From NCBI GenBank assembly GCA_964528225.1, contig CAZGRT010000189.1:1-34950 (forward strand): a DNA stretch of 34,950 nt, in the 5' to 3' direction. The translations under genes and the position numbers were made by a program. A model generated the notes under the pieces. It searched no databases. It saw only the letters and a list, made by a program, of their open reading frames with translations, and was not told where the DNA came from. Positions 760 through 13,107 of the stretch are shown here, in pieces. Source of the DNA: an uncultured Thermodesulfobacteriota bacterium. Lineage in GTDB: Bacteria > Desulfobacterota > Deferrisomatia > Deferrisomatales > JACRMM01. Each line of letters opens with the position of its first letter. Position 1 is the stretch's first letter.

Positions 760-1827
760 TCAGGTGGCCCCGGAGCACGCGTGGCCCGCTGCCCCCCGCA
801 CCGGAAGGTAGGGCCTCACCGCCAGCAGGACCAGCAACAAAGCCGACACGAGGCCAACGACCGGGGGGAACACCTCCGCGGCGGCCCCTGCCAGGGCCCG
901 TGCGGGCACGCCGAGGGCACCGTACGCCGCGTCGAGTGCGAGCCCCATGCCCACGGCGCCGATCGAGATGGAGAGAAGGTAGCGCGCGGTCGCGCCCACG
1001 CCCAGAGTTCCCGCCAGGACCGTGACCGAGGCGATGTTCGTAGCCGGACCCGCCAGCAGGAAGACCAGGGCTGCACCGGGGCTGAGTCCCTTGAGAATCA
1101 GCGCCGCCGCGATGGGCGTCGAGGCGGTCGCGCACAGGTACAGCGGAATGCCCACTACCAGCATGACCAGGAGGGGCAGGAACCCGCTGCCCAGGTTCTC
1201 CCGGACGAAGTCGGAGGGGACGAGGACCGTGATGAGCCCGGCGAGGACGAAGCCCACGGCGAGCCACGGGGCTAGGTCACCCAGAAGGTCGCCGAAAGCA
1301 TACCGGAGGCCGGCGCGGACGCGCTGCAGCGGCCTGGCTCCGGCGGGCACGGGCTCTTCGGGGCACCCGCAGGGACGGCGCGGCGGTTCCGGGAGAGGTT
1401 CCTCGCGGCCGAGGAGGTTCTCGGCCACGCCGGCGAGCACCGCGGTCGCGAAGGCAGCCAGCGGGCGCGCCACCGTCATCAACGGGTCCATGAGGGCGTA
1501 GGTCAGCGCGATGGAGTCCACCCCGGTCTCCGGCGTGGAGACGAGAAAGGAGACCGTAGCCCCCTTGCTCGCTCCCTTTCGACGAAGCCCGAGGGCGGCC
1601 GGGATCACGCCGCAGGAACAGAGGGGGAGCGGCACTCCCGCCAGGGCGGCCTTGAGGACCGAGCGCACCTTGCCCCGCCCCAGGTGCCGCCCGATCGCCT
1701 CGGCGGAGAGGAACCCGTGCAGGAGGCCTGCCGCCAGGAACCCGAAGATCAGGTACGGGGCGGAGTCGGTGAGGATGTGCCAACTCTCCCAGAGGACTGC
1801 GCCGGCGAACCCGGTCAGGTCACCCAT
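760..1827 (-). CDS. ArsP_1/DUF318-family permease (ArsP-like / SO_0444-like metal(loid) transporter)
   Basis: 355-aa polytopic membrane protein. GVPLPLCSCGVIPAALGL resembles the vicinal-Cys TPFCSCS motif of the organoarsenical permease ArsP. A second CxC lies in the central loop (RRPCGCPEE). GGAGGA precedes the ATG, and the start overlaps the arsR stop by 13 nt. Confidence 0.9.
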   Translation of the reverse strand: MGDLTGFAGAVLWESWHILTDSAPYLIFGFLAAGLLHGFLSAEAIGRHLGRGKVRSVLKAALAGVPLPLCSCGVIPAALGLRRKGASKGATVSFLVSTPETGVDSIALTYALMDPLMTVARPLAAFATAVLAGVAENLLGREEPLPEPPRRPCGCPEEPVPAGARPLQRVRAGLRYAFGDLLGDLAPWLAVGFVLAGLITVLVPSDFVRENLGSGFLPLLVMLVVGIPLYLCATASTPIAAALILKGLSPGAALVFLLAGPATNIASVTVLAGTLGVGATARYLLSISIGAVGMGLALDAAYGALGVPARALAGAAAEVFPPVVGLVSALLLVLLAVRPYLPVRGAAGHACSGAT

Positions 1828-2171
1828 CGGTCCTCCGCCACGTGCCGCAGGGCCTCGGCGAACAGCGACCTCACGTGGTCGTCGTCAAGGCTGTAGAAGG
1901 CGAGCTTGCCCTCCCGGCGACAACGCACGATCCGGTACGCCCGCAGGAGGCGCAACTGGTGGGAGACGGCGCTCGGGCTCACGTCGAAGATCTCCGCCAG
2001 GTCGCACACGCACAACTCCCGCTCCGACAGCGCCAGCAGGATCCCCACGCGCGTCGCGTCCCCCAGCACCTTGAACGTCTCCGCCACGGCACCCACCGGC
2101 GAACTGCGCACGGCGCGGCGCGCCTGTTCGACCGCTTCGGGGTGAACCAGCCTTTCCTCGCAGACCTCCAA
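1815..2171 (-). CDS. arsR: ArsR/SmtB-family metalloregulator
   Basis: 118 aa, with a TTG start 4 nt after GGAGGG. Winged-HTH signature LSERELCVCDLAEIFDVSPSAVSHQLRLLRAYRIV, including the CVC metal(loid) site. Confidence 0.9.
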   Translation of the reverse strand: MEVCEERLVHPEAVEQARRAVRSSPVGAVAETFKVLGDATRVGILLALSERELCVCDLAEIFDVSPSAVSHQLRLLRAYRIVRCRREGKLAFYSLDDDHVRSLFAEALRHVAEDRWVT

Positions 2172-2285
2172 GGCGCCCTCCTTCGAGTGAGAGTGTGCTC
2201 ATATGTTCGCAATTTCATGACCGGCCGTCAACGCCCTCGCTCTGTCTCCGCCGGAGAGGCGGTCGCGGGCGACACCGGGGGCCCG

Positions 2286-2302
2286 GACGTCGTATCCTGA
2301 GG
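2286..2302 (+). promoter_or_regulatory. 17-mer GACGTCGTATCCTGAGG containing a putative -10 (TATCCT, 2293-2298) upstream of the permease gene
   Basis: The identical 17-mer recurs at 12212-12228 upstream of the ABC importer. Both lie about 30 nt upstream of a GTG start. The -35 here is weak (cgacac). Confidence 0.4.
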
Positions 2303-2332
2303 GTCTAGCGGGACGCAACTCTGCAACCGGCG

Positions 2333-3403
2333 GTGGCTCGATCGGTATTGGCCCTTCCGCCGACCCCTCCCGGAGGGCCACGGGTCCGGGGCGATACGAA
2401 AGGCAAGGGCGTGGAATCGTTCATCGACGGTGCGTTGCGGCTGGGACGGGGAATCGGCGAGGAGTTTCTCTACATCCTCCCCTACCTCCTCTTCGGGGTC
2501 CTCCTCGAGGCCACCATCCGCACGCTGAAGTGGCACGTGAAGCTCCGCCACGTGCTCGGCCGCTTCGGCCCCTTCACCATCCCGGTGGCGGCGCTTCTCG
2601 GCGTGGCGAGCCCGCTGTGCGCCTGCGCCACCCTTCCGCTGGTGATCTCCCTCCTGGTAGCCGGCCTGCCCCTGGCGCCGGCCGTGACGCTGCTCGTGGC
2701 CTCGCCGCTCATGAGCCCGGCCGCCTACACGATGCTGTCCGGGATGCTCGGCCTGGGATGGGCCAACGTGGTGCTCGCCTGCGCGCTGCTCCTCTCGCTG
2801 TTCGCGGGGTACGTCACCCTGCTGCTGCGACCGTACGGGTTCCGGGAGGCGGAGATCTTCCGCAAGCAACTGCCCCAGGGGAACTTCCACGACCCGGACT
2901 ACCCGGTGGAGGAACTGCGGTGCGAGTGCGGCCGCCAGCTCTCCCATCGGGTGGACCGCTGCACCCACAACCCGGTCCTGACCTTCCTTGCGCGGGTGTG
3001 GGAGGGGAGCCTGAAGATCGGCCGCTTCACGCTCATCGGCCTGCTGATCGAGGTCGTGGCCACGACCTTCGTCCCCACCGACTGGATCATCCGACTCCTG
3101 GAGGGGGACGGCGCCTGGCCGATCTTCGCCATCACCTTCGCCACGATTCCCCTCCACCTACCCCAGGTGACCGCGGCGTCCATGGTCTTCGGCTTCTTCC
3201 TCCCCGACCCGGGCACGGCCATCCCCCTGGCCAAGGGCCCGGGCATCGCCATGCTGGTGGGCGGGCCGGTCACGGCGCTCCCGGTCATGGGCGTCTTCCT
3301 CTCCATGTTCCGGAAGCGGGTGTTCTTCCTCTACCTGGCCGTCTGCGTGGCGGGCACGCTGGCGCTGGCCCTGGGCTACCGCGCCCTCCCCTGGACCTTC
3401 TGA
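2333..3403 (+). CDS. ArsP_1/DUF318-family permease, second paralogue
   Basis: 356 aa from GTG 2333 (an alternative GTG is at 2411). GVASPLCACATLPLVISL is the family CxC position. A cytoplasmic-loop triad CECGRQLSHRVDRC is present. Divergent from arsR at 1815-2171. Confidence 0.85.
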   Translation: MARSVLALPPTPPGGPRVRGDTKGKGVESFIDGALRLGRGIGEEFLYILPYLLFGVLLEATIRTLKWHVKLRHVLGRFGPFTIPVAALLGVASPLCACATLPLVISLLVAGLPLAPAVTLLVASPLMSPAAYTMLSGMLGLGWANVVLACALLLSLFAGYVTLLLRPYGFREAEIFRKQLPQGNFHDPDYPVEELRCECGRQLSHRVDRCTHNPVLTFLARVWEGSLKIGRFTLIGLLIEVVATTFVPTDWIIRLLEGDGAWPIFAITFATIPLHLPQVTAASMVFGFFLPDPGTAIPLAKGPGIAMLVGGPVTALPVMGVFLSMFRKRVFFLYLAVCVAGTLALALGYRALPWTF

Positions 3404-3430
3404 ATTTCCCTAAGCGGGGAGAGGAATCTC

Positions 3431-3458
3431 TTGACCCCGGGGTACCGTTCCCTATCCT
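3431..3458 (+). promoter_or_regulatory. sigma70-like promoter TTGACC-16 nt-TATCCT for the octahaem cytochrome gene
   Basis: TTGACC at 3431-3436 and TATCCT at 3453-3458, in the 122-nt gap before the ATG at 3526. Confidence 0.5.
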
Positions 3459-3467
3459 GTGGGGGAC

Positions 3468-3483
3468 GCATCCCAGGGGATGC
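3468..3483. promoter_or_regulatory. 16-bp palindrome GCATCCC-AG-GGGATGC just downstream of the -10, candidate operator
   Basis: Perfect 7-bp arms read directly from the sequence. It sits around the predicted transcription start. Confidence 0.35.
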
Positions 3484-3525
3484 CCGCGCCGAGGCCCCAC
3501 CCCGTCCAAGCCCAGGAGGAATCCC

Positions 3526-5040
3526 ATGCGGCACGCACCCCGGCTCCTGCTCATCTTGACGGCCGCTACGGCCGCAACTCTGACGGGGTTCGTGAGCCCC
3601 TCGCCTGGCCGGGCGGCGGAGATCAGCGACGCGACGTCCGAGTGCATCGCCTGCCACGAGGAGGTCACCCCGGGCATCGTCGGCGACTGGAGGGCGAGTC
3701 GGCACTCCCGGATCACCCCGGCGGAGGCCCTGCAGAAGAAGCCCCTGGAGAAGCGCTTCTCGGCACCCGAGGCTCCGGCCGGTTCCGCCGACACGGTGGT
3801 GGGGTGCGCCGAGTGCCACACCCGAAACCCCGGCGCCCACGCGGACACCTTCGAGCACAACGGCTACCGGGTCCACATCGTGGTGACCCCGGAGGACTGC
3901 GCGGCCTGCCACCCCTCCGAGCGGGAGCAGTTCGCCCAGAATCTCATGGCCAACGCCCACGCCAACCTGGTGGACAACAGCGTCTACGGCATGCTCGTCG
4001 ACGCGGTGGCCGGCATGCACACCTTCGGCGGCGGGAAGGTCTCGACCGAGGCGCCCGATGACCTGACCAAGGCGGACGCGTGCCTGTCGTGCCACGGGAC
4101 CCGCGTCGAGGTGAAGGGCATCCGCCCCCGGGACACGGCCATGGGGGAGATGGAGTTCCCGGTGCTCGCGGGATGGCCCAACCAGGGGGTCGGCCGTGTG
4201 AACCCCGACGGCAGCAAGGGAGCCTGCACGGCCTGTCACACGCGCCACGAGTTCTCCATCGAGATGGCGCGCAAGCCCTACACCTGCGCCCAGTGCCACA
4301 AGGGACCGGATGTTCCGGCATACCCGGTGTACGCCGTGAGCAAGCACGGCAACATCTTCGATGCCATGAAGTCCCACTGGGACTTCGACGCCGTCCCATG
4401 GGTAGCCGGGAAGCACTTCACGGCGCCCACCTGCGCCACGTGCCACGTGAGCCTCGTGACCTCGACGACGGGAGAGGTCCTGGCCCAGCGATCCCACCGC
4501 ATGAACGACCGGAGCGCCTGGCGCATCTTCGGGCTCCCCTACGCCCACCCACACCCCGAGTCGGCCGACACCACCGCCATCCGGAACCGCGCGGGCCTGC
4601 CGCTCCCGACCGAGCTCACCGGAGAGCCCGTCGAGGGGTTCCTGATCGGGGCGGAGGAACAGGCCCGCCGGCGCGGGACCATGCAGAAGATCTGCCAGGG
4701 GTGCCACAGCGCCCAGTGGGTCCAGGGGCACTACGACAAGTTCGAGAACACGCTGCGAACCACCAACGCCCTGACGCTGGCCGCCACGAAGGTACTGCTC
4801 GAGGCGTGGGACCGGGGCGCTGCCCGGGGGCTCGCCGAGAACGACAGCATCTTCAACGAGACCATCGAGCAGAAGTGGGTCCAGCAGTGGCTCTTCTACG
4901 CGAACTCCACCCGGTACGCCTCCGCCATGGGAGGAGCGGACTACGGCGTGTTCGCCAACGGACGCTTCTTCCTCTCGTCGAATCTCACCGAGATGGCCGA
5001 CTGGCTGCGCCTGCTGGCCCCTCCGGCGCCGAAGCCGTGA
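3526..5040 (+). CDS. octahaem c-type cytochrome, hydroxylamine oxidoreductase (HAO) family
   Basis: ATG at 3526 follows AGGAGGA. Signal peptide [21 protein letters not shown]. Eight CxxCH motifs: CIACH, CAECH, CAACH, CLSCH, CTACH, CAQCH, CATCH, CQGCH. The block [27 protein letters not shown]...VSKHG resembles N. europaea HAO as I remember it. The upstream 332 codons of track ORF 2530..5040 overlap the permease and are rejected. Confidence 0.9.
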   Translation: [504 protein letters not shown]

Positions 5041-5071
5041 CCGGCACCGAAGACAGGGAGGAACCTCCGTC

Positions 5072-6127
5072 GTGTCGCCCAAGCGCTCCGCGAAGATCGG
5101 CCTCCCGCCCGGCACCCTCGTCCACGTGGGAGAGCCGAGCGAGGAACCGGTCGGCCTCTCGCTGATCGACTTCGGCCCCGAACACCTGGAGGAGAGGGAG
5201 CTCGGCGAACCGGACGACCTCATCCCCTACCTGCGCCCCGAGACGGTCACCTGGCTCAACGTCACCGGGGTCCACCGGGTCGAAGTGGTGGCCCGAATCG
5301 GCGAACTGCTCGGCATCCACCCCCTCGTCCAGGAGGACGTGGTCAACACCCACCAGCGGCCGAAGGCCGAGGCCTACGACGGCTATCTGTACCTCGTGGT
5401 CCGCATGATCCGCTACGACGCGGAGGCTGAGGACCTGGACACGGAGCAGGTGAGCCTGATCGTCCGCCCGGGGCTGCTCGTGACGTTCCAGGAGAAGGAA
5501 GGGGATGTCTTCGACGCCGTCCGGCAGCGCATCCGCGGGGCCAAGGGACGGCTGCGGACCTCGGGCGCCGACTACCTGGCGTACGCCCTGCTCGACAGCG
5601 TGGTCGACCACTACTTCCTGGCGCTGGAGGGGATCTGGGACACGGCGGAGGAGATCGAGGAGGAGGTGATCGACGAGCCCTCGCCCGAGACCCTGGAGAC
5701 GATCCACCGGCTCAAGAGAACGGCGGTGCAGCTGCGCCGCTCCATCTCGCCCGTGCGGGAGCTCGTCCTCGCCCTCGAGCGAGACGGCTCCGAGCTCGTG
5801 GCCTCCTCCACGCAACCGTTTCTGCGCGACCTCTACGACCACACCATCCAGGTGGTGGAGAGCCTGGAGTCGCTGCGAGACGTCATGGGCGGCTACGTGG
5901 ACCTCTACCTCTCGACCGTGAACAACCGGAAGAACCAGGTGATGAAGGTCCTCACGATCATCGCCACCGTGTTCATCCCTCTCACCTTCCTCGCCGGCAT
6001 CTACGGGATGAACTTCGAGCACATGCCCGAGCTTCGCTGGCCCTGGGCATACCCGGCCCTGCTCCTGCTCATGGGGGGGGTCGCCGGCGGCATGTTCCTG
6101 TTCTTCCGCCGGAAACGCTGGCTGTAG
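5072..6127 (+). CDS. corA: CorA-family Mg2+/Co2+ transporter
   Basis: 351 aa, with GTG at 5072 after GGGAGGA. C-terminal two TM helices carry the signature YGMNFEHMPEL (GMN motif). Confidence 0.92.
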   Translation: MSPKRSAKIGLPPGTLVHVGEPSEEPVGLSLIDFGPEHLEERELGEPDDLIPYLRPETVTWLNVTGVHRVEVVARIGELLGIHPLVQEDVVNTHQRPKAEAYDGYLYLVVRMIRYDAEAEDLDTEQVSLIVRPGLLVTFQEKEGDVFDAVRQRIRGAKGRLRTSGADYLAYALLDSVVDHYFLALEGIWDTAEEIEEEVIDEPSPETLETIHRLKRTAVQLRRSISPVRELVLALERDGSELVASSTQPFLRDLYDHTIQVVESLESLRDVMGGYVDLYLSTVNNRKNQVMKVLTIIATVFIPLTFLAGIYGMNFEHMPELRWPWAYPALLLLMGGVAGGMFLFFRRKRWL

Positions 6128-6139
6128 AACCGGCCCGCC

Positions 6140-6370
6140 TCACCGAAGCAACTTCGCGACCTCGCCGGATTTCAAGACCTTCCCAGCCGACTTGATCTGG
6201 CCATCCACCGCGAGGGCCGGGGTGACCAGGACGCCCCGCCTCATCAACTCGGCCAACTCGGTGACGTGGACGACCTCGGCTTCGACGCCCGCTTCTGCCA
6301 CCGCCTGCTTGGCAGCTTCGTAGAGCTTGTTGCACTTCGTGCAACCGGTCCCGAGCACTTCGATCTTCAT
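6140..6370 (-). CDS. small thioredoxin-family protein (redox-active disulfide protein 2 type)
   Basis: 76 aa, MKIEVLGTGCTKCNKLYEAAKQAV...LVTPALAVDGQIK. CxxC = CTKC. GGAGG RBS. Last gene of the minus-strand operon. Confidence 0.85.
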   Translation of the reverse strand: MKIEVLGTGCTKCNKLYEAAKQAVAEAGVEAEVVHVTELAELMRRGVLVTPALAVDGQIKSAGKVLKSGEVAKLLR

Positions 6371-6432
6371 GGGAAAACCTCCGCTGTCGGCGTCTGGCCG
6401 TTGGTTGCCGGGCCCGAAGGCGCGAGACCCGG

Positions 6433-6816
6433 TCAGGGGAGTCCCACCGCCCTGCGGGCGGCCTGCTGGATGAGCGCGGCGGGAATCACATCGTAGGTTC
6501 GTGGTCCGACCTCGACGGTGCGGCACGAGGCCTCCACTCCCAGCAGGGCGGTGCAGGAGCAGCAAGGGCTCTCGCCGGCACGGGCCCCCGGAATCAAGTC
6601 CTCCAGAGGTGTCCCGTTGAACCGGATCTGGTTCGACTCGGAGACGCGGTCCGCCCCGAGCACCGTCTCGGTGAACGAGACGGCCACCCCTTCGCGAGCG
6701 AGTTCCTCCTTGAGTTCGGCCACGACCTCCCGCACCGCCTGACCCGTGTCGGAGCAGCGGTCGCAGGTGCGGCCCCGGCTCTCCACGTGCCTCCACTCGA
6801 TGGCGAGCGTCTTCAT
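6433..6816 (-). CDS. DUF2703-like cysteine-rich protein
   Basis: 127 aa. N-terminal RTCDRC pair and a GESPCCSCTALLGVEASC cluster. GGGAGGAG RBS. No signal peptide. Confidence 0.8.
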   Translation of the reverse strand: MKTLAIEWRHVESRGRTCDRCSDTGQAVREVVAELKEELAREGVAVSFTETVLGADRVSESNQIRFNGTPLEDLIPGARAGESPCCSCTALLGVEASCRTVEVGPRTYDVIPAALIQQAARRAVGLP

Positions 6817-6849
6817 GGCTCCTCCCTCACGACGCCGTGGCGTCCCGGC

Positions 6850-7554
6850 TCATGCGCCGTTCCAGAGGATGAACACACCCACGAGCGCAATCAGTGCCCC
6901 GGCGGCCTTCTTGAAGACGAGGTTGGCCCTCCCGAGCTCCCGCGACTGGATCAGGTTCTTGGCAACCCCCATGCTGGTCCCGGCGACGACGATCAGGAGG
7001 CAGTGGCCCACCGCGTAGGTCCACAGGAGCGCGAGGCCGTAGGGGAGGTTCCCCTTGGAGGCGATGTAGGTGAGGACCACCACCAGGATCGGCGCGGCGC
7101 AGGGCGCCGAGACCACCCCGAAGAGGAGCCCCAGGGTGAAGGCGCCCAGCACCCCCGCGTGCCTGGGCCGGTAGCGGGCCAGCCCCTCGGGCACCGGGAA
7201 GGTCCAGAGATCCCACAGATGCGCGGCCATGGCGAAGCAGACGAGCGCGATGACCCAGGGCCAGAAGCCGCCCACGTCGCCGAAGAGCCGCCCCACCATC
7301 ACCGCGATCAGACCCATGGCCGTGAAGCTCGCGGCCAGGCCGAAGACGAAGACCAGCGAGAAGCCAAGGCTGCGCCGCCATCCGGAGATCCCCTCGTACC
7401 CGCCCACGAAGCCGATCACGAGCGGGATCATCGCGAGCACGCAGGGGTTCGAGGCGGTGAGGGCGCCGCCCACGAACACCCCGGCGAAGGCCAGCCACGG
7501 GTTGGTCTGGATGTAGCCCTGCACGTTGCCCAGGAACGCCTCGAGGCCGCCCAT
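6850..7554 (-). CDS. ccdA: cytochrome c biogenesis / thiol:disulfide electron-transfer membrane protein, CcdA/DsbD-TM family
   Basis: 234 aa, polytopic. Conserved Cys-in-TM motifs ASNPCVLAMIPLV and VVSAPCAAPILV. The start abuts the stop of the upstream permease. Confidence 0.9.
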   Translation of the reverse strand: MGGLEAFLGNVQGYIQTNPWLAFAGVFVGGALTASNPCVLAMIPLVIGFVGGYEGISGWRRSLGFSLVFVFGLAASFTAMGLIAVMVGRLFGDVGGFWPWVIALVCFAMAAHLWDLWTFPVPEGLARYRPRHAGVLGAFTLGLLFGVVSAPCAAPILVVVLTYIASKGNLPYGLALLWTYAVGHCLLIVVAGTSMGVAKNLIQSRELGRANLVFKKAAGALIALVGVFILWNGA

Positions 7555-7555
7555 G

Positions 7556-8746
7556 TCAACCTCCTGCCACGGTCAGGTGGGGGAAGAGGGCACCGAACAG
7601 CAGGCCCGCGGCCGTGGAGAGCAAGACGACGTAGAGCACGAACACCGCGGTCTTCTTCGTTCCCAGCACGCTGCGGATCACCAGCATGTTGGGCAGCGAG
7701 AGCGCCGGGCCGGCCAGCAGCAAGGCCAGAGCCGGGCCGCTGCCCATGCCGCTCCCCAGAAGCCCCTGGAGGATCGGCACCTCGGTCAGGGTGGCGAAGT
7801 ACATCAGCGCCCCGGCCACCGCGGCGAAGAGGTTGGCTCCCAGGGAGTTGCCGCCCACGAGGGTGGCCACCCAGGAGCTCGGGACGAGGCCGCGGTCGCC
7901 GCCGGGCATGCCCAGGAGGAACCCGGCGATCAGAACTCCGGCGAAGAGGAGCGGCAGGATCTGCTTGGCGAAGCCCCACGTGGACTCCACCCACTCCCGG
8001 CGCTCGTCCCGGGAGAACCAGGCCCAGACCATGGCGAGCGTCACCAGGAGGCCGGCACCCGAGAGGTGCCACTTGAGGTCGAACACGGCCATGGCCCAGC
8101 CCACGGGCTCCCTGGGCTTGCCCCAGGCCCCGAACACCAGAACCGCGACCATGGCGACCATGTACGCCGCGTTCTTCCACAAGGGCCGGGTCGGCTCCTC
8201 CACGGGAATCGCCGCGAAGCCGGCCTGCCGCTCGGCCTCCGACGCGCGGAAGGTGAAGGCCATGAGGAGCCCCACGGCGTAGGCGAAGACCACGGCGCCC
8301 AACGCCCGGGCGATGCCGAGCTCCGGGCCCAGGACCTTGGCGGTCAAGACGATGGCCAGCACGTTGATCGCGGGTCCCGAGTAGAGGAAGGCCGTGGCCG
8401 GGCCGATGCCCGCGCCCCGGCCGTAGATGCCGGCGAAGAGGGGGAGCACGGTGCACGAGCACACCGCGAGCACCGTGCCGGAGACGGAGGCCACGGTGTA
8501 GGCCACGAAGCGGTGGGCCTTCGCGCCCAGATACTGGAGCACGGCCCCCTGGCTCACGAACACGGCGATGGCCCCGGCGATGAAGAAGGCCGGCACCAGG
8601 CAGGTGAGCACGTGGGCCCGGGCGTAGTCCTGGAGCATGGCGAAGGACTCGAGGATCGCCGACTGCACCCGGGCGTGGTCCAAGGGGACGTAGTACGCGG
8701 CGAGGAAGACGCCGGCGATCAGGAAGAGCTTGTTGCGTTCGTTCAT
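7556..8746 (-). CDS. ArsP_1/DUF318-family permease, third paralogue
   Basis: 396 aa from the ATG at 8746 (MNERNKLFLIAGV...). VSGTVLAVCSCTVLPLFAGI carries the vicinal Cys motif. The upstream part of track ORF 7556..9040 is R/G-rich and overlaps the thioredoxin gene. Confidence 0.88.
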   Translation of the reverse strand: MNERNKLFLIAGVFLAAYYVPLDHARVQSAILESFAMLQDYARAHVLTCLVPAFFIAGAIAVFVSQGAVLQYLGAKAHRFVAYTVASVSGTVLAVCSCTVLPLFAGIYGRGAGIGPATAFLYSGPAINVLAIVLTAKVLGPELGIARALGAVVFAYAVGLLMAFTFRASEAERQAGFAAIPVEEPTRPLWKNAAYMVAMVAVLVFGAWGKPREPVGWAMAVFDLKWHLSGAGLLVTLAMVWAWFSRDERREWVESTWGFAKQILPLLFAGVLIAGFLLGMPGGDRGLVPSSWVATLVGGNSLGANLFAAVAGALMYFATLTEVPILQGLLGSGMGSGPALALLLAGPALSLPNMLVIRSVLGTKKTAVFVLYVVLLSTAAGLLFGALFPHLTVAGG

Positions 8747-8796
8747 GGATGGCTCCGGCCCGGAGGCTGGGAAGCGCGAAACCCGGAAACTCCGCG

Positions 8797-9174
8797 TCAC
8801 TCGATCAGGCCCAACTCCCGGGCCTTGGCCAGCATGGGGTCCTTCTTCATCTGGCCCACGTTGCGGAACACCTCCTTGCCCCGGGCGTCGAAGAAGACCA
8901 GGGTGGGAATCAGCAGGACCTTGTAGGCCTCGGCCAGGGCCTCCTCCTGGCCCACGTGCACGAACTTGAGGAGCACCCGGTCGCCGACGGCCGCCTCGAG
9001 CTCGTCCATGGTCTTCGCCTGCTCGATGCACTGCAGGCACCGGGTCATGCCGAAGTCCACGATCAGGGGCCTGCCGGCCGCCCGGGCCTCCTCGCCCCGG
9101 GGGTCGGAAGCCCGGGCGGCCGACGTCGAAAGACAGGTCGTGAGGACGAGCAGGCCGAGAATCAGTCCCTTCAT
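8797..9174 (-). CDS. exported thioredoxin-fold protein (CxxC = CLQC)
   Basis: 125 aa. Signal peptide MKGLILGLLVLTTCLSTSAARA (possible lipobox-like LTTC). PLIVDFGMTRCLQCIEQ is the active-site region. ATGA overlap with the upstream gene. Confidence 0.85.
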   Translation of the reverse strand: MKGLILGLLVLTTCLSTSAARASDPRGEEARAAGRPLIVDFGMTRCLQCIEQAKTMDELEAAVGDRVLLKFVHVGQEEALAEAYKVLLIPTLVFFDARGKEVFRNVGQMKKDPMLAKARELGLIE

Positions 9175-9605
9175 CGCAAGCCCATCCTCTCGAGGACCGC
9201 GACCACGTCGGTCTCGGGGAGGTATCCCTCGTGGCGAAAGAACTCGCTGCCGTCGGGCCGGAGGAATACCTGGGTCGGGATCAGCCGAACCCGGTACTCC
9301 CCGGCCTTCGCGGGGTCCCGGCGCACGTCGTGGAAGATCACCTCCACCCGGCCGGGGAAGCGCTCCCGGACCGCCTCCATCACCGGCACCATGGCCTCGC
9401 AGGGCTTGCAGCCCACGCTGCCGAGTTCGAGGAAGGTGACCTTCTCGCCGGCCGCGAGGGGCTGGGCTGCCGCGGTCGGCAGGGCCTCGCTGGAGGGCTC
9501 GGCCGCGAGGTCCAGTCCGTAGAGGGCGACGGCGGCGGTGAGCGCGGCGGCCCCGGCCAGGAAGAGGAAAGGGACGAGGAACCTGCGCCGTGACTTCTCG
9601 ATCAC
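9171..9605 (-). CDS. membrane-anchored thioredoxin-fold protein, TlpA/ResA-like (CxxC = CKPC)
   Basis: GTG at 9605 overlaps the upstream stop (GTGA) and follows GGAGGG. N-terminal anchor RRRFLVPFLFLAGAAALTAAVALYG, then VTFLELGSVGCKPCEAMVP. Confidence 0.8.
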   Translation of the reverse strand: MIEKSRRRFLVPFLFLAGAAALTAAVALYGLDLAAEPSSEALPTAAAQPLAAGEKVTFLELGSVGCKPCEAMVPVMEAVRERFPGRVEVIFHDVRRDPAKAGEYRVRLIPTQVFLRPDGSEFFRHEGYLPETDVVAVLERMGLR

Positions 9606-9997
9606 TTCGTCCCTCCGGCGAGGTGGGCCTCCCACGCCTGGTAGAAGTCCCGTTCGGCGAAGAACCCGTCGAAGCGGGCCACCCGGCGGCCCCGGCCGTC
9701 GAGCAGGAAGACCACCGGCACGGCCAGGATGCCCAGTTCCCTGGCCGCCTTGGGGGTCGCCTTGAGGTCGATGGTCTCGCGCCGGAACCCCCACGGGTTG
9801 CCGGCGAGGAAGTTCACAACCTCCTGCTCCCCGGCCACGCAGAGGCTCGCCTCGCAGTCGCACGCATCGCTCTTGGTGACGAAGACCAGGGTAGGGGAGG
9901 CCCCTTCGGGGAGCCCGGCCCGAGCCGAGGTCCCGAGGAAAAGGAAGAGGAGTAGGAGGGCGAGAACGCCTCCGCCCATGCTGTGACGATGGGGCAT
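9602..9997 (-). CDS. exported thioredoxin-fold-like protein with a CxCx4C triad instead of CxxC
   Basis: ATG at 9997 after GGAGGAGGAG. Signal-like GGGVLALLLLFLFLGTSARA. TLVFVTKSDACDCEASLCVAG occupies the position where a Trx CxxC would sit. A ...LAVPVVFLLDG... strand is typical of the fold. First gene of the operon. Confidence 0.7.
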   Translation of the reverse strand: MPHRHSMGGGVLALLLLFLFLGTSARAGLPEGASPTLVFVTKSDACDCEASLCVAGEQEVVNFLAGNPWGFRRETIDLKATPKAARELGILAVPVVFLLDGRGRRVARFDGFFAERDFYQAWEAHLAGGTK

Positions 9998-10112
9998 CCG
10001 GGCAACTCCTCCTCCGGCAGGACCCCGAGAACGAGCACTCCCCGGGATCATTTCCGCGCAGACCAGGAGCTTACGCCCACGCATTCCCCTATGGCAAGCG
10101 CATTAATCGTTT

Positions 10113-10130: not shown

Positions 10131-10173
10131 TTGCACATGTCCATATTTTCCTTTCTATTAGGAGTTGACCTAC

Positions 10174-10575
10174 ATGTCGGCTGCTGGCAAGATCGCTCTG
10201 TGTCGTTTTTCGATTCCGGAGGCCGCCGTGGAACTGCTGATCGCACTGAAAGCCTTGGCCGACGAGTCGCGCCTGCGGATCGTCTGGATGCTGGAGCAGC
10301 GGCCCCTGTGCGCCTGCGAGATCCAGGCAGTGCTCGGCCTGGCCCAGTCCACCGTGTCCCGACACCTGCAGATCCTGGAGGACGCCGGCTTCGTCGCCTC
10401 GGAGCGCGTCGGCCCGTGGAAGAACTACCGACTCCACCCGGTTCCGGCGCCCGCGGTCCAGGGACTGCTCGCCCAGGCGAGGCTGGCCGCTGCCGGGACC
10501 GGGGAAGCCAGCCAGGTCCGCGAGGCGGCCCGGCAGGCCTGCCGGGAAGACCTGTGCGGGAAGAGCGCGGCCTGA
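10174..10575 (+). CDS. arsR: ArsR-family arsenic-responsive repressor
   Basis: ATG at 10174 lies 9 nt after AGGAG (the track gives TTG 10165). LKALADESRLRIVWMLEQRPLCACEIQAVLGLAQSTVSRHLQIL includes a CAC site. Two more Cys lie near the C-terminus. Confidence 0.9.
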   Translation: MSAAGKIALCRFSIPEAAVELLIALKALADESRLRIVWMLEQRPLCACEIQAVLGLAQSTVSRHLQILEDAGFVASERVGPWKNYRLHPVPAPAVQGLLAQARLAAAGTGEASQVREAARQACREDLCGKSAA

Positions 10576-10582
10576 GGAGCCC

Positions 10583-11020
10583 GTGAAACGGCGCACTCTC
10601 TTCCTCTGCACCGGCAACTCGTGCCGAAGCCAGATGGCCGAGGGGTGGCTGCGCCATCTCGGGGGCGACCGGTACGAAGCGCTCTCCGCCGGGACCCGGC
10701 CCCACGGGGTCAACCCGCTGGCCTGCCGTTCCATGGCCGAGGTCGGGGTGGACCTCTCGGGACAACGCTCCAAGTCGGTGGACGAGTTCCTCGGCGAGAA
10801 TCTGGACCTGCTCGTCACGGTGTGCGGCGGGGCAGAGGAGTCGTGCCCGGTGTTCCGCGGCCGGGTGAAGGAGCGCCGGCACTGGCCCTTCGACGACCCG
10901 GCGGAGGCGGGGGGCACGGAGGACGAAAGGATGTCGGTGTTCCGCCGTGTGCGGGACGAGATCCGCGACGCCGTGGAGGGCCTGCTGCGCGAAGACGGCA
11001 CACCGCGGGGCGGCCTCTGA
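10583..11020 (+). CDS. arsC: arsenate reductase, LMW-PTP / thioredoxin-coupled type
   Basis: 145 aa. P-loop [16 protein letters not shown] (CX5R) plus the downstream Cys pair [10 protein letters not shown], typical of Trx-coupled ArsC. Confidence 0.92.
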
Positions 11021-11051
11021 GCCCCGTTCGCTGACGCACGAGGAGGTGGCC

Positions 11052-12122
11052 ATGTCCGGCGTCGCCCGAAGACTCTCGTTTCTCGACCGCTACCTGACGC
11101 TCTGGATCTTCCTGGCGATGGCGGCGGGGGTCCTGGGGGGCTGGGCCTTCCCCGACGTGAAGGACGTGATCAACGTCTTCCAGGTCGGCACGACGAACAT
11201 CCCCATCGCCGCCGGCCTGATCCTGATGATGTACCCGCCTCTGGCCAAGGTGAAGTACGAGGAACTGCCCCGGGTCTTCCGGAACCTGCGCGTCCTCGCC
11301 CTCTCCCTGGTGCAGAACTGGGTGGTGGGCCCGGTCCTCATGTTCCTCCTCGCGATCACGATGCTCGGCGGCTACCACGAGTACATGGTTGGGCTGATCC
11401 TGATCGGCCTGGCCCGTTGCATCGCCATGGTGATCGTGTGGAACGACCTCGCGAAGGGCGATACCGAGTACTGCGCGGGGCTGGTGGCGTTCAACTCGAT
11501 CTTTCAGGTGCTCTTCTTCTCCGTGTACGCGTGGTTCTTCATCACGTGGCTCCCCCCGAAGCTCGGCGTCGCCGGTGCCACGGTCGACATCACGATCGGC
11601 CAGATCGCGGAGAGCGTCTTCATCTATCTGGGAGTCCCCTTCCTCGGCGGCATGATCTCCCGGTTCGTGGGTCTCAAGACCAAGGGTCGCCAGTGGTACG
11701 AGACCAGGTTCATCCCCCGGGTGGGTCCGATCACACTGATCGCCCTCCTGTTCACGATCCTCGTGATGTTCAGCCTCAAGGGCGAGTACATCGTGCAGTT
11801 GCCGATGGACGTGGTCCGGATCGCGGTGCCCCTGACGATCTACTTCCTGGTCATGTTCTTCGTGTCCTTCTGGATGAGCCGCAAGGTGGGGGCGACCTAC
11901 GGCCAGACCGCCACGCTGTCCTTCACCGCGGCCTCGAACAACTTCGAGCTCGCCATCGCCGTCGCCGTCGCCGTGTTCGGGATCGACTCCGGTGAGGCCT
12001 TCGCCGCGGTCATCGGGCCGCTGGTCGAGGTGCCCGTGCTGATCGGCCTGGTCAACGTGGCGCTCCGGCTGCAGAGGAGGCACTTCTCCCCCGGCGTGGC
12101 CTCCGGGGCCGCCCGGGCCTGA
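11052..12122 (+). CDS. acr3: arsenite efflux transporter, ACR3 family
   Basis: ATG at 11052 after [33 protein letters not shown]...[22 protein letters not shown] is typical of ACR3. 356 aa, polytopic. Confidence 0.93.
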
Positions 12123-12195: not shown

Positions 12196-12228
12196 TTGGT
12201 CCCGGACGCCCGACGTCGTATCCTGAGG
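12196..12228 (+). promoter_or_regulatory. putative promoter TTGGTC-17 nt-TATCCT carrying the second copy of the 17-mer GACGTCGTATCCTGAGG
   Basis: -35 at 12196-12201, -10 at 12219-12224, 17-mer at 12212-12228. This argues against the track start (TTG 12196) for the binding-protein gene. Confidence 0.45.
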
Positions 12229-12258
12229 CGTCGTGCCCCCTGCAGACCGGAGCCTCCG

Positions 12259-13107
12259 GTGGCCGCACCCCGATGGTTGGCCCGCATCCTGGCCCTCACG
12301 GCCGCCCTCGTCGTGCAGCCGGCCGCCGCACGGGCGGCTCCGCGCTCCCTCGAGGTGTTCGCGGGTTCGGCCTCGAAACCCGCCGTCCAGGAGCTCGCCG
12401 CAGCCTTCGAGCAGCGCGCCGGCATCCGGGTGCACGTCCACTTCGGCGGGTCCGGCGCCGTGCTCTCCCAGATGCAGCTCGCCCGGAGGGGCGACGTCTA
12501 CCTCCCCGGCTCCTCCGACTTCATGGAGCTCGCCAAGCGCCGCGCGCTGGTGGATCCCCTGACGGAGGTGCGGTTGTTCTACCTGGTGCCCGCCATCGCC
12601 GTGGCCCGCGGGAACCCCGAGGGGATCCGGTCCCTCGAAGACCTGGCGCGGCCGGGGCTTCGGGTCGGGATCGCCCGCCCCGAGACGGTGTGCGTCGGCC
12701 TCTACGGAGTCGAGGCCCTGGAGCGCAGCGGGCTGGCGGAGCGCGTGCGGCCCAACATCGTCAACTGGGCGGAGTCCTGCGAGAAGACCGCGCAGATGCT
12801 CGCTCTGGGCCTGGTAGACGCCGTACTGGGCTGGGACGTGTTCGACGACTGGGACCCGGCCCGCATCGAGACCGTGCCGTACCCGCCGGAGAGGGTGCCC
12901 CGGATCGGATACGCGCCGGCCGCGGTCTCGGTCTTCGCGCGGGAGCCGGACCTCTCCCGGCAGTTCCTCGCCTTCCTCTCCGGGCCGGAAGGCCGGGAGG
13001 CGTTTCGCCGCCACGGCTACCTGGCGGTCCTCGAGGATGCCAGGGCTCTCGCGCGCCCGGACACGCCGGTGGGCGGGGAGTTCCCGCTTCCCGGGGGATG
13101 GAGATGA
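12259..13107 (+). CDS. periplasmic substrate-binding protein of a molybdate/tungstate-type (ModA/WtpA-like) oxyanion ABC transporter
   Basis: GTG at 12259 lies 6 nt after GGAG. Signal peptide AAPRWLARILALTAALVVQPAAARA. LEVFAGSASKPAVQELAAAFEQRAGIRVHVHFGGSGAVLSQM...GDVYLPGSSDFM matches the PBP2 ModA-like pattern. The track ORF begins at 12196. Confidence 0.8.
   Translation: MAAPRWLARILALTAALVVQPAAARAAPRSLEVFAGSASKPAVQELAAAFEQRAGIRVHVHFGGSGAVLSQMQLARRGDVYLPGSSDFMELAKRRALVDPLTEVRLFYLVPAIAVARGNPEGIRSLEDLARPGLRVGIARPETVCVGLYGVEALERSGLAERVRPNIVNWAESCEKTAQMLALGLVDAVLGWDVFDDWDPARIETVPYPPERVPRIGYAPAAVSVFAREPDLSRQFLAFLSGPEGREAFRRHGYLAVLEDARALARPDTPVGGEFPLPGGWR

What the first reader, a model, noticed from the sequence alone, without database searches (positions are those of the whole stretch)
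3404..5040. Orphan HAO-family octahaem cytochrome c with its own promoter and operator-like palindrome, embedded in a metalloid island
Seen:
- A 504-aa exported protein with eight CxxCH motifs.
- Blocks [62 protein letters not shown] and CQGCHS parallel N. europaea HAO as I remember it ([68 protein letters not shown]).
- A TTGACC-16-TATCCT promoter is followed by the palindrome GCATCCC-AG-GGGATGC.
- No haoB, c554/cM552, NrfH-like quinol dehydrogenase or other N-cycle gene is in the window. The neighbours are an ArsR-divergent CxC permease and corA.
- The C-terminal [10 protein letters not shown] might align with HAO's NPGGWTYTEGW, which holds the haem-P460 cross-linking Tyr.

Established: HAO-family members with the Tyr cross-link are oxidative (hydroxylamine or hydrazine). 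Those lacking it (epsilon-Hao type) reduce nitrite or hydroxylamine.

Inference: either outcome is interesting. One is an oxidative-type HAO outside nitrifiers and anammox bacteria. The other is a reductive detoxifying enzyme co-located with oxyanion and metalloid genes, possibly with a non-nitrogen substrate. Its electron partner is unknown.
Basis: partly seen in the sequence, partly recalled or inferred. Interest (0 to 1): 0.66.

Follow-up and report, generated by a model that had tools for sequence, protein, structure and literature searches.

The report
Cross-link-free IhOCC-type octahaem cytochrome c
The gene encodes an exported eight-haem cytochrome of the hydroxylamine-oxidoreductase superfamily, but it belongs to the common reductive IhOCC branch, with phenylalanine where nitrifier enzymes carry the cross-linking tyrosine, so it is an ordinary member of a large, poorly studied family whose relatives usually sit in oxygen-stress operons.

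Summary
The gene is real: window 3526-5040 (+), 504 aa, signal-peptide-like N-terminus, eight CxxCH. Its closest solved relative is IhOCC of Ignicoccus hospitalis (4QO5, E 3.5e-120; profile E 6e-156). Nitrosomonas HAO is far more distant (E ~1e-17 to 1e-24).

The Tyr in GGADY (Y473) does not take the HAO cross-link position in any alignment I made. The anchors A-[H/M]...G have the same spacing in NeHAO, KsHOX, IhOCC and this protein. That register puts HAO Tyr467 on invariant F476, matching the published epsilon-Hao rule (Met, then Trp eight residues later). HAO's distal Asp-His and Tyr334 read Asp-Val and Phe here. This is a cross-link-free, reductive-type enzyme, not an oxidative HAO.

The family is large: at least 578 species genomes and 1470 clusters at 50% identity, mostly Thermodesulfobacteriota.

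The metalloid context is lineage-specific and recurs only in one 95%-identical relative. In 49 of 80 other loci the gene lies within 3 kb of, and on the same strand as, oxygen-stress genes (Fur/PerR-like, rubrerythrin, AhpC, desulfoferrodoxin, ferritin, rubredoxin, flavodiiron protein, cytochrome bd).

The promoter-like site is plausible. The palindrome is within chance and is not conserved.

Verdict: new member of a known kind. The stress-operon link is the interesting lead.

The parts
3526..5040 (+). Gene for a 504-aa IhOCC-type octahaem cytochrome c (the end coordinate includes the stop codon)
   Evidence: Translation. phmmer against PDB: 4qo5_A E 3.5e-120; profile E 6.3e-156. Pfam PF13447, E 1.8e-20. 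GC3 0.93, like the neighbouring genes.
3526..3618 (+). Signal-peptide-like N-terminus (aa 1-31, [31 protein letters not shown])
   Evidence: Read from the sequence. AF2 puts a helix at aa 4-22. Covalent c-type haem attachment requires export (established knowledge). The cleavage site is inferred, not predicted by a tool.
3431..3458 (+). Sigma-70-like promoter candidate, TTGACC-16-TATCCT
   Evidence: Only match in 2000-6300, with 0.1 expected. Both hexamers are identical in L011. Function is untested.
3468..3483 (+). 7+7 palindrome GCATCCC-AG-GGGATGC, judged not to be a conserved operator
   Evidence: Present. Expected by chance in 15% of shuffles. It is unique in the window as an exact match; the looser matches are no more than chance. 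It is disrupted in the 95% relative L011.
3514..3520 (+). Shine-Dalgarno-like AGGAGGA, 5 nt before the ATG
   Evidence: Sequence.
3643..3657 (+). Haem motif 1, CIACH (aa 40-44)
   Evidence: Aligned to NeHAO CVECH.
3805..3819 (+). Haem motif 2, CAECH (aa 94-98)
3898..3912 (+). Haem motif 3, CAACH (aa 125-129)
4081..4095 (+). Haem motif 4, CLSCH (aa 186-190). It aligns with NeHAO CTMCH, the catalytic (P460) haem motif of HAO.
   Evidence: The identity of haem 4 as the catalytic haem is established knowledge of HAO and IhOCC.
4225..4239 (+). Haem motif 5, CTACH (aa 234-238)
4285..4299 (+). Haem motif 6, CAQCH (aa 254-258)
4309..4314 (+). Asp262-Val263, aligned to the distal Asp267-His268 of NeHAO. 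The His is lost. The PDVPA motif is shared with IhOCC.
   Evidence: hhalign. D262, V263 and P264 are invariant in A1. D291 and H292 are invariant in A2. IhOCC reads PDVPA.
4432..4446 (+). Haem motif 7, CATCH (aa 303-307)
4693..4707 (+). Haem motif 8, CQGCH (aa 390-394)
4927..4929 (+). Met468, the invariant anchor eight residues before position 476. It is equivalent to His459 of NeHAO and to the conserved Met of epsilon-Hao.
   Evidence: PMC8940962, citing Haase 2017.
4942..4944 (+). Tyr473 (GADY), a conserved aromatic three residues before the cross-link-equivalent position. It is not the cross-link Tyr.
   Evidence: Tyr in 119/121 close homologues. Trp in IhOCC. The column reads Y38/W13/F7 across divergent representatives, including the Met-8-Trp type.
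4951..4953 (+). Phe476, the residue at the position equivalent to HAO cross-linking Tyr467
   Evidence: Invariant in A1. Phe in IhOCC. Gapless register between the anchors A-[H/M] and G, which are 11 residues apart in NeHAO, KsHOX, IhOCC and the query. Trp sits in this column in 37 divergent representatives.
5072..6127 (+). corA, 31 nt downstream on the same strand, probably co-transcribed
   Evidence: Pfam CorA, E 3e-72. No terminator-like site lies between the two genes. The adjacency recurs only in L011.

Best explanation
The gene encodes an exported octahaem cytochrome c of the IhOCC branch of the HAO superfamily.

Structure (inferred by homology): seven bis-His haems pass electrons to one five-coordinate catalytic haem (motif 4). 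That haem is not cross-linked to a tyrosine, because the equivalent residue is Phe476. Like every characterised cross-link-free member (IhOCC, epsilon-Hao, Kustc0458/HAOr), it should therefore work as a reductase, not as a hydroxylamine or hydrazine oxidase.

Most likely role (inferred): a non-respiratory, protective one. The enzyme would reduce small toxic N-O species (nitrite, hydroxylamine, NO) and possibly O-O species (H2O2, O2) outside the cytoplasm. Electrons would come from the general periplasmic cytochrome pool, since no dedicated quinol dehydrogenase is encoded nearby.

Expression (inferred): probably from its own sigma-70-like promoter at 3431-3458, together with corA.

Shown here: family placement, haem count, Phe at the cross-link position by alignment, loss of the HAO distal His and Tyr, and genomic context in relatives. 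Inferred: trimeric state, substrates, electron donor and regulation.
For: Family placement:
- 4QO5 (IhOCC) is by far the best PDB match: E 3.5e-120 with the single sequence and 6.3e-156 with the profile. NeHAO scores ~1e-17 to 1e-24.
- Foldseek gives the same ranking.
- PMC9250108 lists 4QO5 as IhOCC, an octahaem nitrite reductase without P460.

Cross-link position:
- Met468 and Phe476 are invariant.
- NeHAO has His459 +8 = Tyr467, and KsHOX has His +8 = Tyr.
- IhOCC has Met +8 = Phe.
- Divergent representatives carry GAxM-MxPDYxxWHG, that is Met +8 = Trp. This is the rule quoted for epsilon-Hao in PMC8940962.

Active site: the HAO distal residues D291/H292/Y358 align to D262/V263/F335.

Biochemistry of relatives: cross-link-free HAOs are reductases (PMC8042395).

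Context:
- The window holds no N-cycle or NrfH-type gene.
- In 80 relatives' loci, 50 carry oxygen-stress genes and 49 have one within 3 kb.
- 188 of 192 such genes are on the same strand as the cytochrome gene.
- Their density falls from 4.7 per 10 kb within 1 kb to 0.76 per 10 kb at 7-10 kb.
Against: - No biochemical or expression data exist for this protein or for any bacterial member of its subfamily.
- The C-terminal region cannot be aligned to HAO with statistical support. hhalign stops at residue 440 and the forced alignment has probability 0.1. The Phe476 assignment therefore rests on anchor spacing, a bridging alignment and a published rule, not on a structure.
- The AF2 model is too poor to help (pLDDT 66, TM 0.37 to 4QO5).
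- This particular gene, its 95% relative and the Deferrisomatales loci L001 and L013 are not in a stress operon. The family-level context may not transfer to it.
- Y473 is strongly conserved and lies on the same loop, so some role at the neighbouring subunit's active site cannot be excluded.
Confidence: 0.6

Rival explanations
1. It is an oxidative, P460-type HAO or HDH-like enzyme. Tyr473 cross-links to the catalytic haem of the neighbouring subunit, giving hydroxylamine or hydrazine oxidation outside nitrifiers and anammox bacteria.
For: - Tyr473 is conserved in 119/121 close homologues.
- It lies on the loop that holds the cross-link Tyr in HAO.
- GG-x-x-Y superficially resembles GGWTY.
- The profile alignment of this segment is statistically uninformative, so sequence alone cannot exclude it completely.
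Against: - No alignment places Y473 on Tyr467. It is 3 residues upstream in the gapless register and 2 in the MAFFT alignment.
- The same D-[Y/W/F] aromatic is present in Met-8-Trp (epsilon-Hao-type) sequences. Those are reported as cross-link-free reductases.
- IhOCC has Trp at this position and no cross-link.
- The distal His268 and Tyr334 of HAO are lost.
- There is no haoB, c554, cM552 or amo context.
- The hosts are anaerobic Thermodesulfobacteriota.
Confidence: 0.04
2. It is a respiratory, energy-conserving nitrite or hydroxylamine reductase. It would be the terminal enzyme of nitrite ammonification or of a reverse-HURM-type pathway, as proposed for epsilon-Hao in Nautilia and raised as a possibility for IhOCC.
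For: - IhOCC, epsilon-Hao and HAOr reduce nitrite and hydroxylamine in vitro.
- Genome papers routinely assign such genes to N metabolism.
Against: - No nap, nar, hcp or quinol-dehydrogenase gene lies in the window.
- My marker set did not probe for N-cycle genes in relatives. The few annotated loci show none next to the gene.
- Relatives' context is dominated by ROS-defence genes, not N-oxide respiration.
Confidence: 0.15
3. It is a metalloid or oxyanion reductase (selenite, tellurite, arsenate, sulfite) that works with the neighbouring ArsR-regulated permeases and the ars genes.
For: - Local context: ArsR and ArsP_1 permeases flank the gene.
- ArsR-ArsC-ACR3 lie at 10165-12122.
- A thioredoxin/CcdA cluster lies at 6140-10084.
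- A few relatives (L057, L059, L071, L077, L081) have an ArsP_1, ArsC or ACR3 homologue within 10 kb.
Against: - The window's neighbours recur only in the 95%-identical L011. 0-3 of the other 79 loci share any one of them.
- Those few loci also carry the stress genes.
- No family member is known to reduce metalloids.
- The gene has its own promoter-like site and is not inside the ars operon.
Confidence: 0.06
4. It is mainly an electron-storage or electron-transfer cytochrome, a periplasmic 'capacitor' or relay with no specific substrate. This was once considered for the abundant Ignicoccus cytochromes.
For: Igni_0955 is highly abundant, and reduction by the native hydrogenase was measured (PMC4429474).
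Against: - The catalytic-haem architecture and the pocket-lining residues (PDVP, the M468...F476 loop) are invariant across the family. That argues for a conserved active site.
- IhOCC has measurable nitrite and hydroxylamine reductase activity.
Confidence: 0.1

Closest known systems
IhOCC (Igni_0955) of Ignicoccus hospitalis, PDB 4QO5
   Same: - Homology over most of the length (query aa 29-348 and 373-497): E 3.5e-120, and 6e-156 with the profile. Identity is about 41% in the Foldseek alignment.
- Eight CxxCH motifs in the same order.
- The PDVPA motif replaces the distal Asp-His of HAO.
- Met, then Phe eight residues later, at the cross-link-equivalent position.
- IhOCC is reported as a trimeric, cross-link-free nitrite and hydroxylamine reductase.
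   Different: - Bacterial (Thermodesulfobacteriota) rather than crenarchaeal.
- Tyr473 stands where IhOCC has Trp.
- Different and variable genomic context.
- No biochemical data.
Epsilon-Hao of Campylobacterota (Haase et al. 2017) and the Met-8-Trp group of HAO-like proteins
   Same: - Octahaem and cross-link-free.
- A conserved Met eight residues before the cross-link-equivalent position.
- A conserved D-Y three to four residues before that position.
- Reductive activity on nitrite and hydroxylamine is reported.
   Different: - Phe instead of Trp at the equivalent position.
- The WHHEGRRxR helix motif of that group is replaced by WLFYANSTR.
- Much lower overall similarity.
- I could not obtain named epsilon-Hao sequences. 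The link rests on the motif rule quoted in PMC8940962.
Kustc0458/HAOr of Kuenenia stuttgartiensis, PDB 6H5L
   Same: - HAO-fold octahaem without the Tyr cross-link.
- Reduces nitrite (to NO), NO and hydroxylamine.
- Second-best PDB match (E 6.5e-24).
   Different: - HAOr keeps the distal Asp-His (GPDHP).
- HAOr has a dihaem partner (Kustc0457). No such partner is encoded here.
Hydroxylamine oxidoreductase of Nitrosomonas europaea (1FGJ, 4FAS) and the anammox HOX and HDH enzymes
   Same: Same superfamily and haem-motif order. The blocks around haems 1, 5, 6, 7 and 8 align (Prob 99.9).
   Different: - No Tyr at the cross-link position (Phe476).
- Distal His268 is Val, and Tyr334 is Phe.
- No C-terminal membrane anchor.
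- No haoB, c554 or cM552.
- Only ~27% identity over 306 aligned columns.
Cytochrome c nitrite reductase NrfA as a stress-defence enzyme
   Same: An analogy of role only. It is a periplasmic multihaem reductase. From my own knowledge (Kern, Volz and Simon 2011, not checked here), it protects Wolinella succinogenes against nitrite, NO, hydroxylamine and H2O2.
   Different: - Pentahaem.
- Lys-ligated CxxCK catalytic haem.
- Dedicated NrfH or NrfBCD electron input.
- Only marginal sequence and fold matches here.

Membership tests
HAO superfamily (PF13447-type octahaem cytochromes c) | Eight c-type haem motifs in the HAO order, with significant sequence or profile homology | tested here: met
   Eight CxxCH. 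PF13447 scores 73.8 bits against a cut-off of 21.9. hhalign against the AOB HAO profile gives Prob 99.9, E 3.7e-31.
Oxidative HAO/HOX/HDH (P460-type) | Tyr at the position that cross-links to the catalytic haem of the adjacent subunit (NeHAO Tyr467) | tested here: not met
   The anchored gapless register and the bridging alignment put invariant Phe476 at this position. Y473 is 2-3 residues upstream in every alignment. The profile alignment of this segment has no statistical support of its own, so structural confirmation is still needed.
Oxidative HAO/HOX/HDH (P460-type) | Distal pocket Asp267-His268 and Tyr334 (NeHAO mature numbering; the residue roles come from my own knowledge of the HAO literature) | tested here: not met
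   D291, H292 and Y358 are invariant in 32 AOB-type HAOs. They align to D262, V263 and F335. D262, V263 and P264 are invariant in the query family.
Oxidative HAO/HOX/HDH (P460-type) | Gene context with haoB, cytochrome c554/cM552 and amo (nitrifiers), or with anammox genes | tested here: not met
   None of these lies in the 35-kb window or in the annotated relatives' loci.
Oxidative HAO/HOX/HDH (P460-type) | 460-475 nm absorption of the reduced enzyme, and SDS-stable covalent trimers | not testable with these tools
   Requires purified protein.
IhOCC family | Homology to 4QO5 over most of the chain that is stronger than to any other octahaem family | tested here: met
   E 3.5e-120 and 6.3e-156, covering aa 20-345 and 369-497. 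The next hit is 6h5l at 1e-24 to 1e-26. Foldseek gives the same order.
IhOCC family | No Tyr at the cross-link position, and an IhOCC-type active-site sequence environment (PDVPA; Met...Phe loop) | tested here: met
   Query KGPDVPAY aligns with IhOCC LDPDVPAF. Query [15 protein letters not shown] aligns with IhOCC TAMNGQDWTTFKRGW.
IhOCC family | Trimeric, membrane-associated enzyme that reduces nitrite and hydroxylamine | not testable with these tools
   Known for IhOCC from the Parey 2016 abstract (from memory) and from PMC9250108. No data exist for this protein.
Epsilon-Hao | Trp at the Tyr-equivalent position, with a conserved Met eight residues before it (Haase 2017, as quoted in PMC8940962) | tested here: not met
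   Met468 is present, but position +8 is Phe, not Trp.
ONR / NrfA / TaNiR-type ammonifying nitrite reductases | CxxCK catalytic haem motif with Lys ligation | tested here: not met
   No CxxCK motif. There are no significant NrfA or ONR hits.
Otr / MccA | Catalytic haem in the N-terminal module, with homology to 1SP3 or 4RKM | tested here: not met
   Neither appears among the PDB sequence hits or the fold hits.

The most novel reading that the evidence does not exclude
IhOCC-type octahaem cytochromes of Thermodesulfobacteriota and neighbouring anaerobic phyla may be periplasmic members of the PerR-type oxygen and ROS defence system. In that role they would act as an extracytoplasmic H2O2 or O2 reductase (or a combined ROS/RNS reductase). 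They would work alongside the rubrerythrin, AhpC, superoxide reductase, flavodiiron protein and cytochrome bd that are co-encoded on the same strand in about 60% of surveyed loci. If so, the thousands of 'hao' genes counted in anoxic metagenomes as nitrogen-cycle markers would be mis-assigned. The window's copy would be a relocated member of that system.
Probability: 0.3. Interest if true: 0.6.

Novelty: new member of a known kind. Interest (0 to 1): 0.33.

Why it matters
For this gene alone, little changes. It is one more member of a large family that has a solved archaeal representative.

Two points go beyond the gene:
- The check shows how to read the diagnostic residue in this branch: count eight residues from the conserved Met or His. 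The nearby conserved Tyr is a decoy that could lead annotators to call these proteins oxidative HAOs.
- 'hao' genes of this type are widely scored as hydroxylamine-oxidation or N-cycle markers in anoxic metagenomes (PMC10116758, PMC8940962). The survey here shows that they are mostly embedded in oxygen-stress operons. That gives a testable alternative physiological role and a caution for metagenomic N-cycle budgets.

Tried and rejected
1. HMMER and hhalign alignment of the C-terminal loop to HAO. The local alignment ends at residue ~440, and forced or global alignment of the C-terminal segments has probability 0.1. It is uninformative.

2. AlphaFold2 with a 37-sequence alignment. pLDDT was 66, and the haem-binding core (aa 221-370) fell below 50. 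TM to 4QO5 was 0.37 with rmsd 19 A. It is unusable for residue-level equivalence. Only the ranking of hits agrees with the sequence searches.

3. A homologue search with an 82-aa NeHAO fragment returned only three fragments and wasted one of three searches. The full-length query worked.

4. The Parey 2016 IhOCC paper is not held. I could not read which IhOCC residue faces haem 4 of the neighbouring subunit.

5. The exact window protein is not on record in the contig index. Source identification rests on the 95% relative L011, an uncultured Thermodesulfobacteriota MAG.

6. Literature searches for a described link between octahaem or HAO-like genes and rubrerythrin, desulfoferrodoxin or PerR operons found nothing relevant. 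The absence applies only to the searchable open-access library.

7. The palindrome was considered as an ArsR, PerR or other operator. It was rejected on chance expectation and lack of conservation.

8. A Desulfurivibrio-type ammonifying octahaem nitrite reductase (TaNiR) was considered. It was rejected because that enzyme has a CxxCK haem.
Full report
**1. What is in the sequence**

The ORF 3526-5040 (+) encodes 504 aa. It has eight CxxCH motifs, at residues 40, 94, 125, 186, 234, 254, 303 and 390, and no CxxCK. The N-terminus (MRHAPR, a hydrophobic stretch, then PGRAA|E) has the form of a Sec signal peptide. This is read from the sequence; no predictor was available. GC3 is 0.93, the same as the neighbouring genes, so nothing points to recent foreign origin.

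An AGGAGGA lies 5 nt before the ATG. The promoter-like TTGACC-16-TATCCT at 3431-3458 is the only such match in 2000-6300, against 0.1 expected. The 7+7 palindrome at 3468-3483 exists.

My own recalled NeHAO precursor matched PDB 6m0p_A at 570 of 570 residues.

**2. Which family**

- Pfam gives PF13447. NCBIfam gives only a far sub-threshold hit to hydrazine dehydrogenase, 64 bits against a cut-off of 900.
- Against PDB sequences, the best match by a wide margin is 4qo5_A: E 3.5e-120 with the single sequence and 6.3e-156 with a 37-sequence family profile. It covers residues 20-345 and 369-497.
- The next matches are Kustc0458 (6h5l, ~1e-24 to 1e-26), NeHAO (~1e-17 to 1e-24), KsHOX and HDH.
- 4QO5 is IhOCC of Ignicoccus hospitalis. 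Soares et al. treat it as an octahaem nitrite reductase that groups with HAO/HDH but has no P460 haem (PMC9250108).
- Foldseek with an AF2 model gives the same ranking, but the model itself is poor.

The family is large and not exotic:
- 3869 hits at E <= 1e-5 among the 8000 candidates scored, with the top 120 all at least 59% identical.
- At least 578 species genomes carry a relative.
- There are 1470 clusters at 50% identity with E <= 1e-3.

The hosts are mostly Thermodesulfobacteriota, including Deferrisomatales, Desulfobacterales, Syntrophobacterales and Desulfatiglandales. Bins assigned to Zixibacteria, Ignavibacteria, Aquificota and others also appear. A 95%-identical orthologue with identical synteny comes from an uncultured Thermodesulfobacteriota MAG (L011).

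**3. The tyrosine question**

Profile methods cannot settle it directly. The hhalign alignment to an AOB HAO profile, in which the cross-link Tyr (Y491 of the precursor) is invariant, is highly significant but ends at residue 440. Forced alignment of the C-terminal pieces is meaningless.

Three other lines agree with each other.

(a) Anchor spacing. From the PDB alignments, the four loops read as follows:

| Protein | Loop sequence |
|---|---|
| NeHAO | LAH-VNPGGWT-Y-TEGW |
| KsHOX | YAH-MSMYNQT-Y-GNGS |
| IhOCC | TAM-NGQDWTT-F-KRGW |
| Query | [15 protein letters not shown] |

In all four, the conserved Ala-[His/Met] and the conserved Gly are 11 residues apart. The gapless register therefore puts Tyr467 on Phe476, which is invariant in the family.

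(b) A published rule. [quoted passage not shown] Here Met468 + 8 = Phe476.

(c) A bridging alignment. I aligned the C-terminal segments of 50%-identity representatives. A large group carries GAxM-MxPDYxxWHG, that is Met, then D-Y, then Trp at +8. The query's D472-Y473 falls in the D-[Y/W/F] column (Y38, W13, F7). F476 falls in the Trp column (W37, F10).

So Y473 is a family-wide aromatic. It also occurs in enzymes that have Trp at the cross-link position. It is Trp in IhOCC, whose structure has no cross-link. MAFFT itself places the HAO Tyr one column before F476 by opening two compensating gaps. No alignment places it on Y473.

In addition, the HAO distal residues Asp267, His268 and Tyr334 (precursor D291, H292, Y358; invariant in A2) align to Asp262, Val263 and Phe335. 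PDVP is invariant here and shared with IhOCC.

The protein therefore fails the defining tests of an oxidative HAO and passes those of the IhOCC type. Cross-link-free members are reductases in every case tested: Kustc0458/HAOr, four epsilon-Haos and IhOCC (PMC8042395; PMC9250108).

**4. Context**

In the window, the gene sits between an ArsR-divergent ArsP_1-family permease and corA. Further on the layout is:
- 6140-10084 (-): a thioredoxin / DUF2703 / CcdA / permease cluster.
- 10165-12122: ArsR-ArsC-ACR3.
- Beyond 12 kb: ordinary housekeeping and transport genes.

No N-cycle gene and no NrfH/NapC-type quinol dehydrogenase is present.

These neighbours are not a family trait. tblastn of the window's neighbours against 80 relatives' loci finds them together only in L011.

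Instead, annotated loci of unrelated relatives show a repeated arrangement:
- Dissulfurirhabdus thermomarina: Fur - rubrerythrin - AhpC - (pentahaem cytochrome) - OCC - desulfoferrodoxin - ferritin - rubredoxin - flavodiiron protein - ... - cytochrome bd.
- A near-identical layout occurs in a JGI metagenome contig.
- L008: Dfx/Rbr/encapsulin/AhpC - OCC - ferritin/Rbr.
- A Desulfobacterales chromosome: Dfx - OCC - x - x - AhpC.

Quantified over the 80 genome loci:
- 50 carry at least one such gene, and 49 have one within 3 kb.
- Among the 44 loci with at least 3 kb on both sides, 32 do.
- 188 of 192 stress genes are on the same strand as the cytochrome gene.
- Their density falls from 4.7 per 10 kb within 1 kb to 0.76 per 10 kb at 7-10 kb.

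I found no paper describing this association in the searchable library. Genome papers simply call these genes hao and assign them to hydroxylamine metabolism.

The window's copy, L011 and the two Deferrisomatales loci (L001, L013) lack this context.

**5. Regulation**

Both promoter hexamers are conserved in L011. The spacer is 95% identical overall, so this is weak support.

The palindrome is not conserved: GCATCCCAG-GGGATGC in the window against GCACCCTTGCGGTACGC in L011. It is the most diverged stretch of the spacer.

A perfect 7+7 inverted repeat with spacer <=6 arises in 15% of shuffles of the spacer, and 51 occur in the window. I therefore do not regard it as an operator.

corA starts 31 nt after the stop codon with no terminator-like site between them. 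Co-transcription is likely, but it recurs only in L011.

**6. Mechanism proposed**

Shown:
- Family placement and haem count.
- Phe at the cross-link position, by alignment.
- An altered distal pocket.
- Lack of a dedicated partner gene.
- The stress-operon context in relatives.

Inferred:
- The protein is exported, matured with eight haems, and probably trimeric like IhOCC.
- It takes electrons from soluble periplasmic cytochromes.
- It reduces small toxic oxides at haem 4.

I favour a protective role acting on nitrite, hydroxylamine and NO, and possibly on H2O2 or O2, over respiration. No respiratory module accompanies the gene anywhere I looked. The family's usual company is ROS defence.

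**7. Verdict**

The oxidative-HAO reading and the operator reading are not supported. The metalloid link is local and probably incidental.

The gene is a new member of a known kind (the IhOCC branch). The family-level stress-operon association and the 'decoy tyrosine' are the useful by-products.

Noticed in passing
L003-L090 (relatives' loci), e.g. L003:4811-15766, L006:4266-14562, L008:2128-9860: In about 60% of 80 loci from different species, the IhOCC-type cytochrome gene lies on the same strand as, and often within 200 bp of, oxygen-stress genes. These are Fur/PerR-like, rubrerythrin, AhpC, desulfoferrodoxin, ferritin, rubredoxin, flavodiiron protein, cytochrome bd and encapsulin. I found no description of this association in the searchable literature.
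   Followed up: partly
window 14993-15454 (-): An ORF encodes a 153-aa protein with a signal-peptide-like N-terminus, four CxxCH motifs (aa 50, 60, 95, 112), a strongly acidic Asp/Glu-rich C-terminal tail and a strong Shine-Dalgarno sequence. It has only a sub-threshold cytochrome c7 Pfam hit and no significant PDB match. It could be a small periplasmic tetrahaem electron carrier, but nothing links it to the octahaem gene 10 kb away.
   Followed up: partly
L003:6598-7971 and L006:5546-6892 (also L019, L026, L028, L045): In some relatives, a 448-457-aa exported cytochrome with five CxxCH motifs is encoded immediately upstream of the octahaem gene. It is a possible dedicated redox partner in those lineages. 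It is absent from the window.
   Followed up: no
window 6140-10084 (-): A same-strand cluster holds a Thioredoxin_3 protein, DUF2703, CcdA/DsbD_TM, an ArsP_1-family permease and two or three exported thioredoxin-like proteins. It is divergent from a second ArsR (10165-10575). It looks like an extracytoplasmic thiol-reduction module. CcdA plus a periplasmic thioredoxin is also the apocytochrome-reducing arm of cytochrome c maturation, so a functional link to the octahaem gene is conceivable but untested.
   Followed up: no
window 760-1827 (-), 2333-3403 (+), 7556-8755 (-): Three paralogous PF03773 (ArsP_1, 'predicted permease') genes lie within 8 kb, two of them flanking an ArsR. The family name suggests organoarsenical efflux, but most members are uncharacterised.
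   Followed up: no
L014 (= L008) title; also L055, L069, L023: Several MAG records that carry close homologues are labelled Verrucomicrobiota, Planctomycetota, Alphaproteobacteria or Limnocylindria. Their loci look like typical Thermodesulfobacteriota stress operons. This may reflect binning or labelling errors, or horizontal transfer.
   Followed up: no
window 12196-14974 (+): A ModA/TupA-like solute-binding protein (SBP_bac_11) and an ABC ATPase with a TOBE domain lie directly after ACR3. They suggest a molybdate- or tungstate-type oxyanion uptake system next to the ars genes.
   Followed up: no
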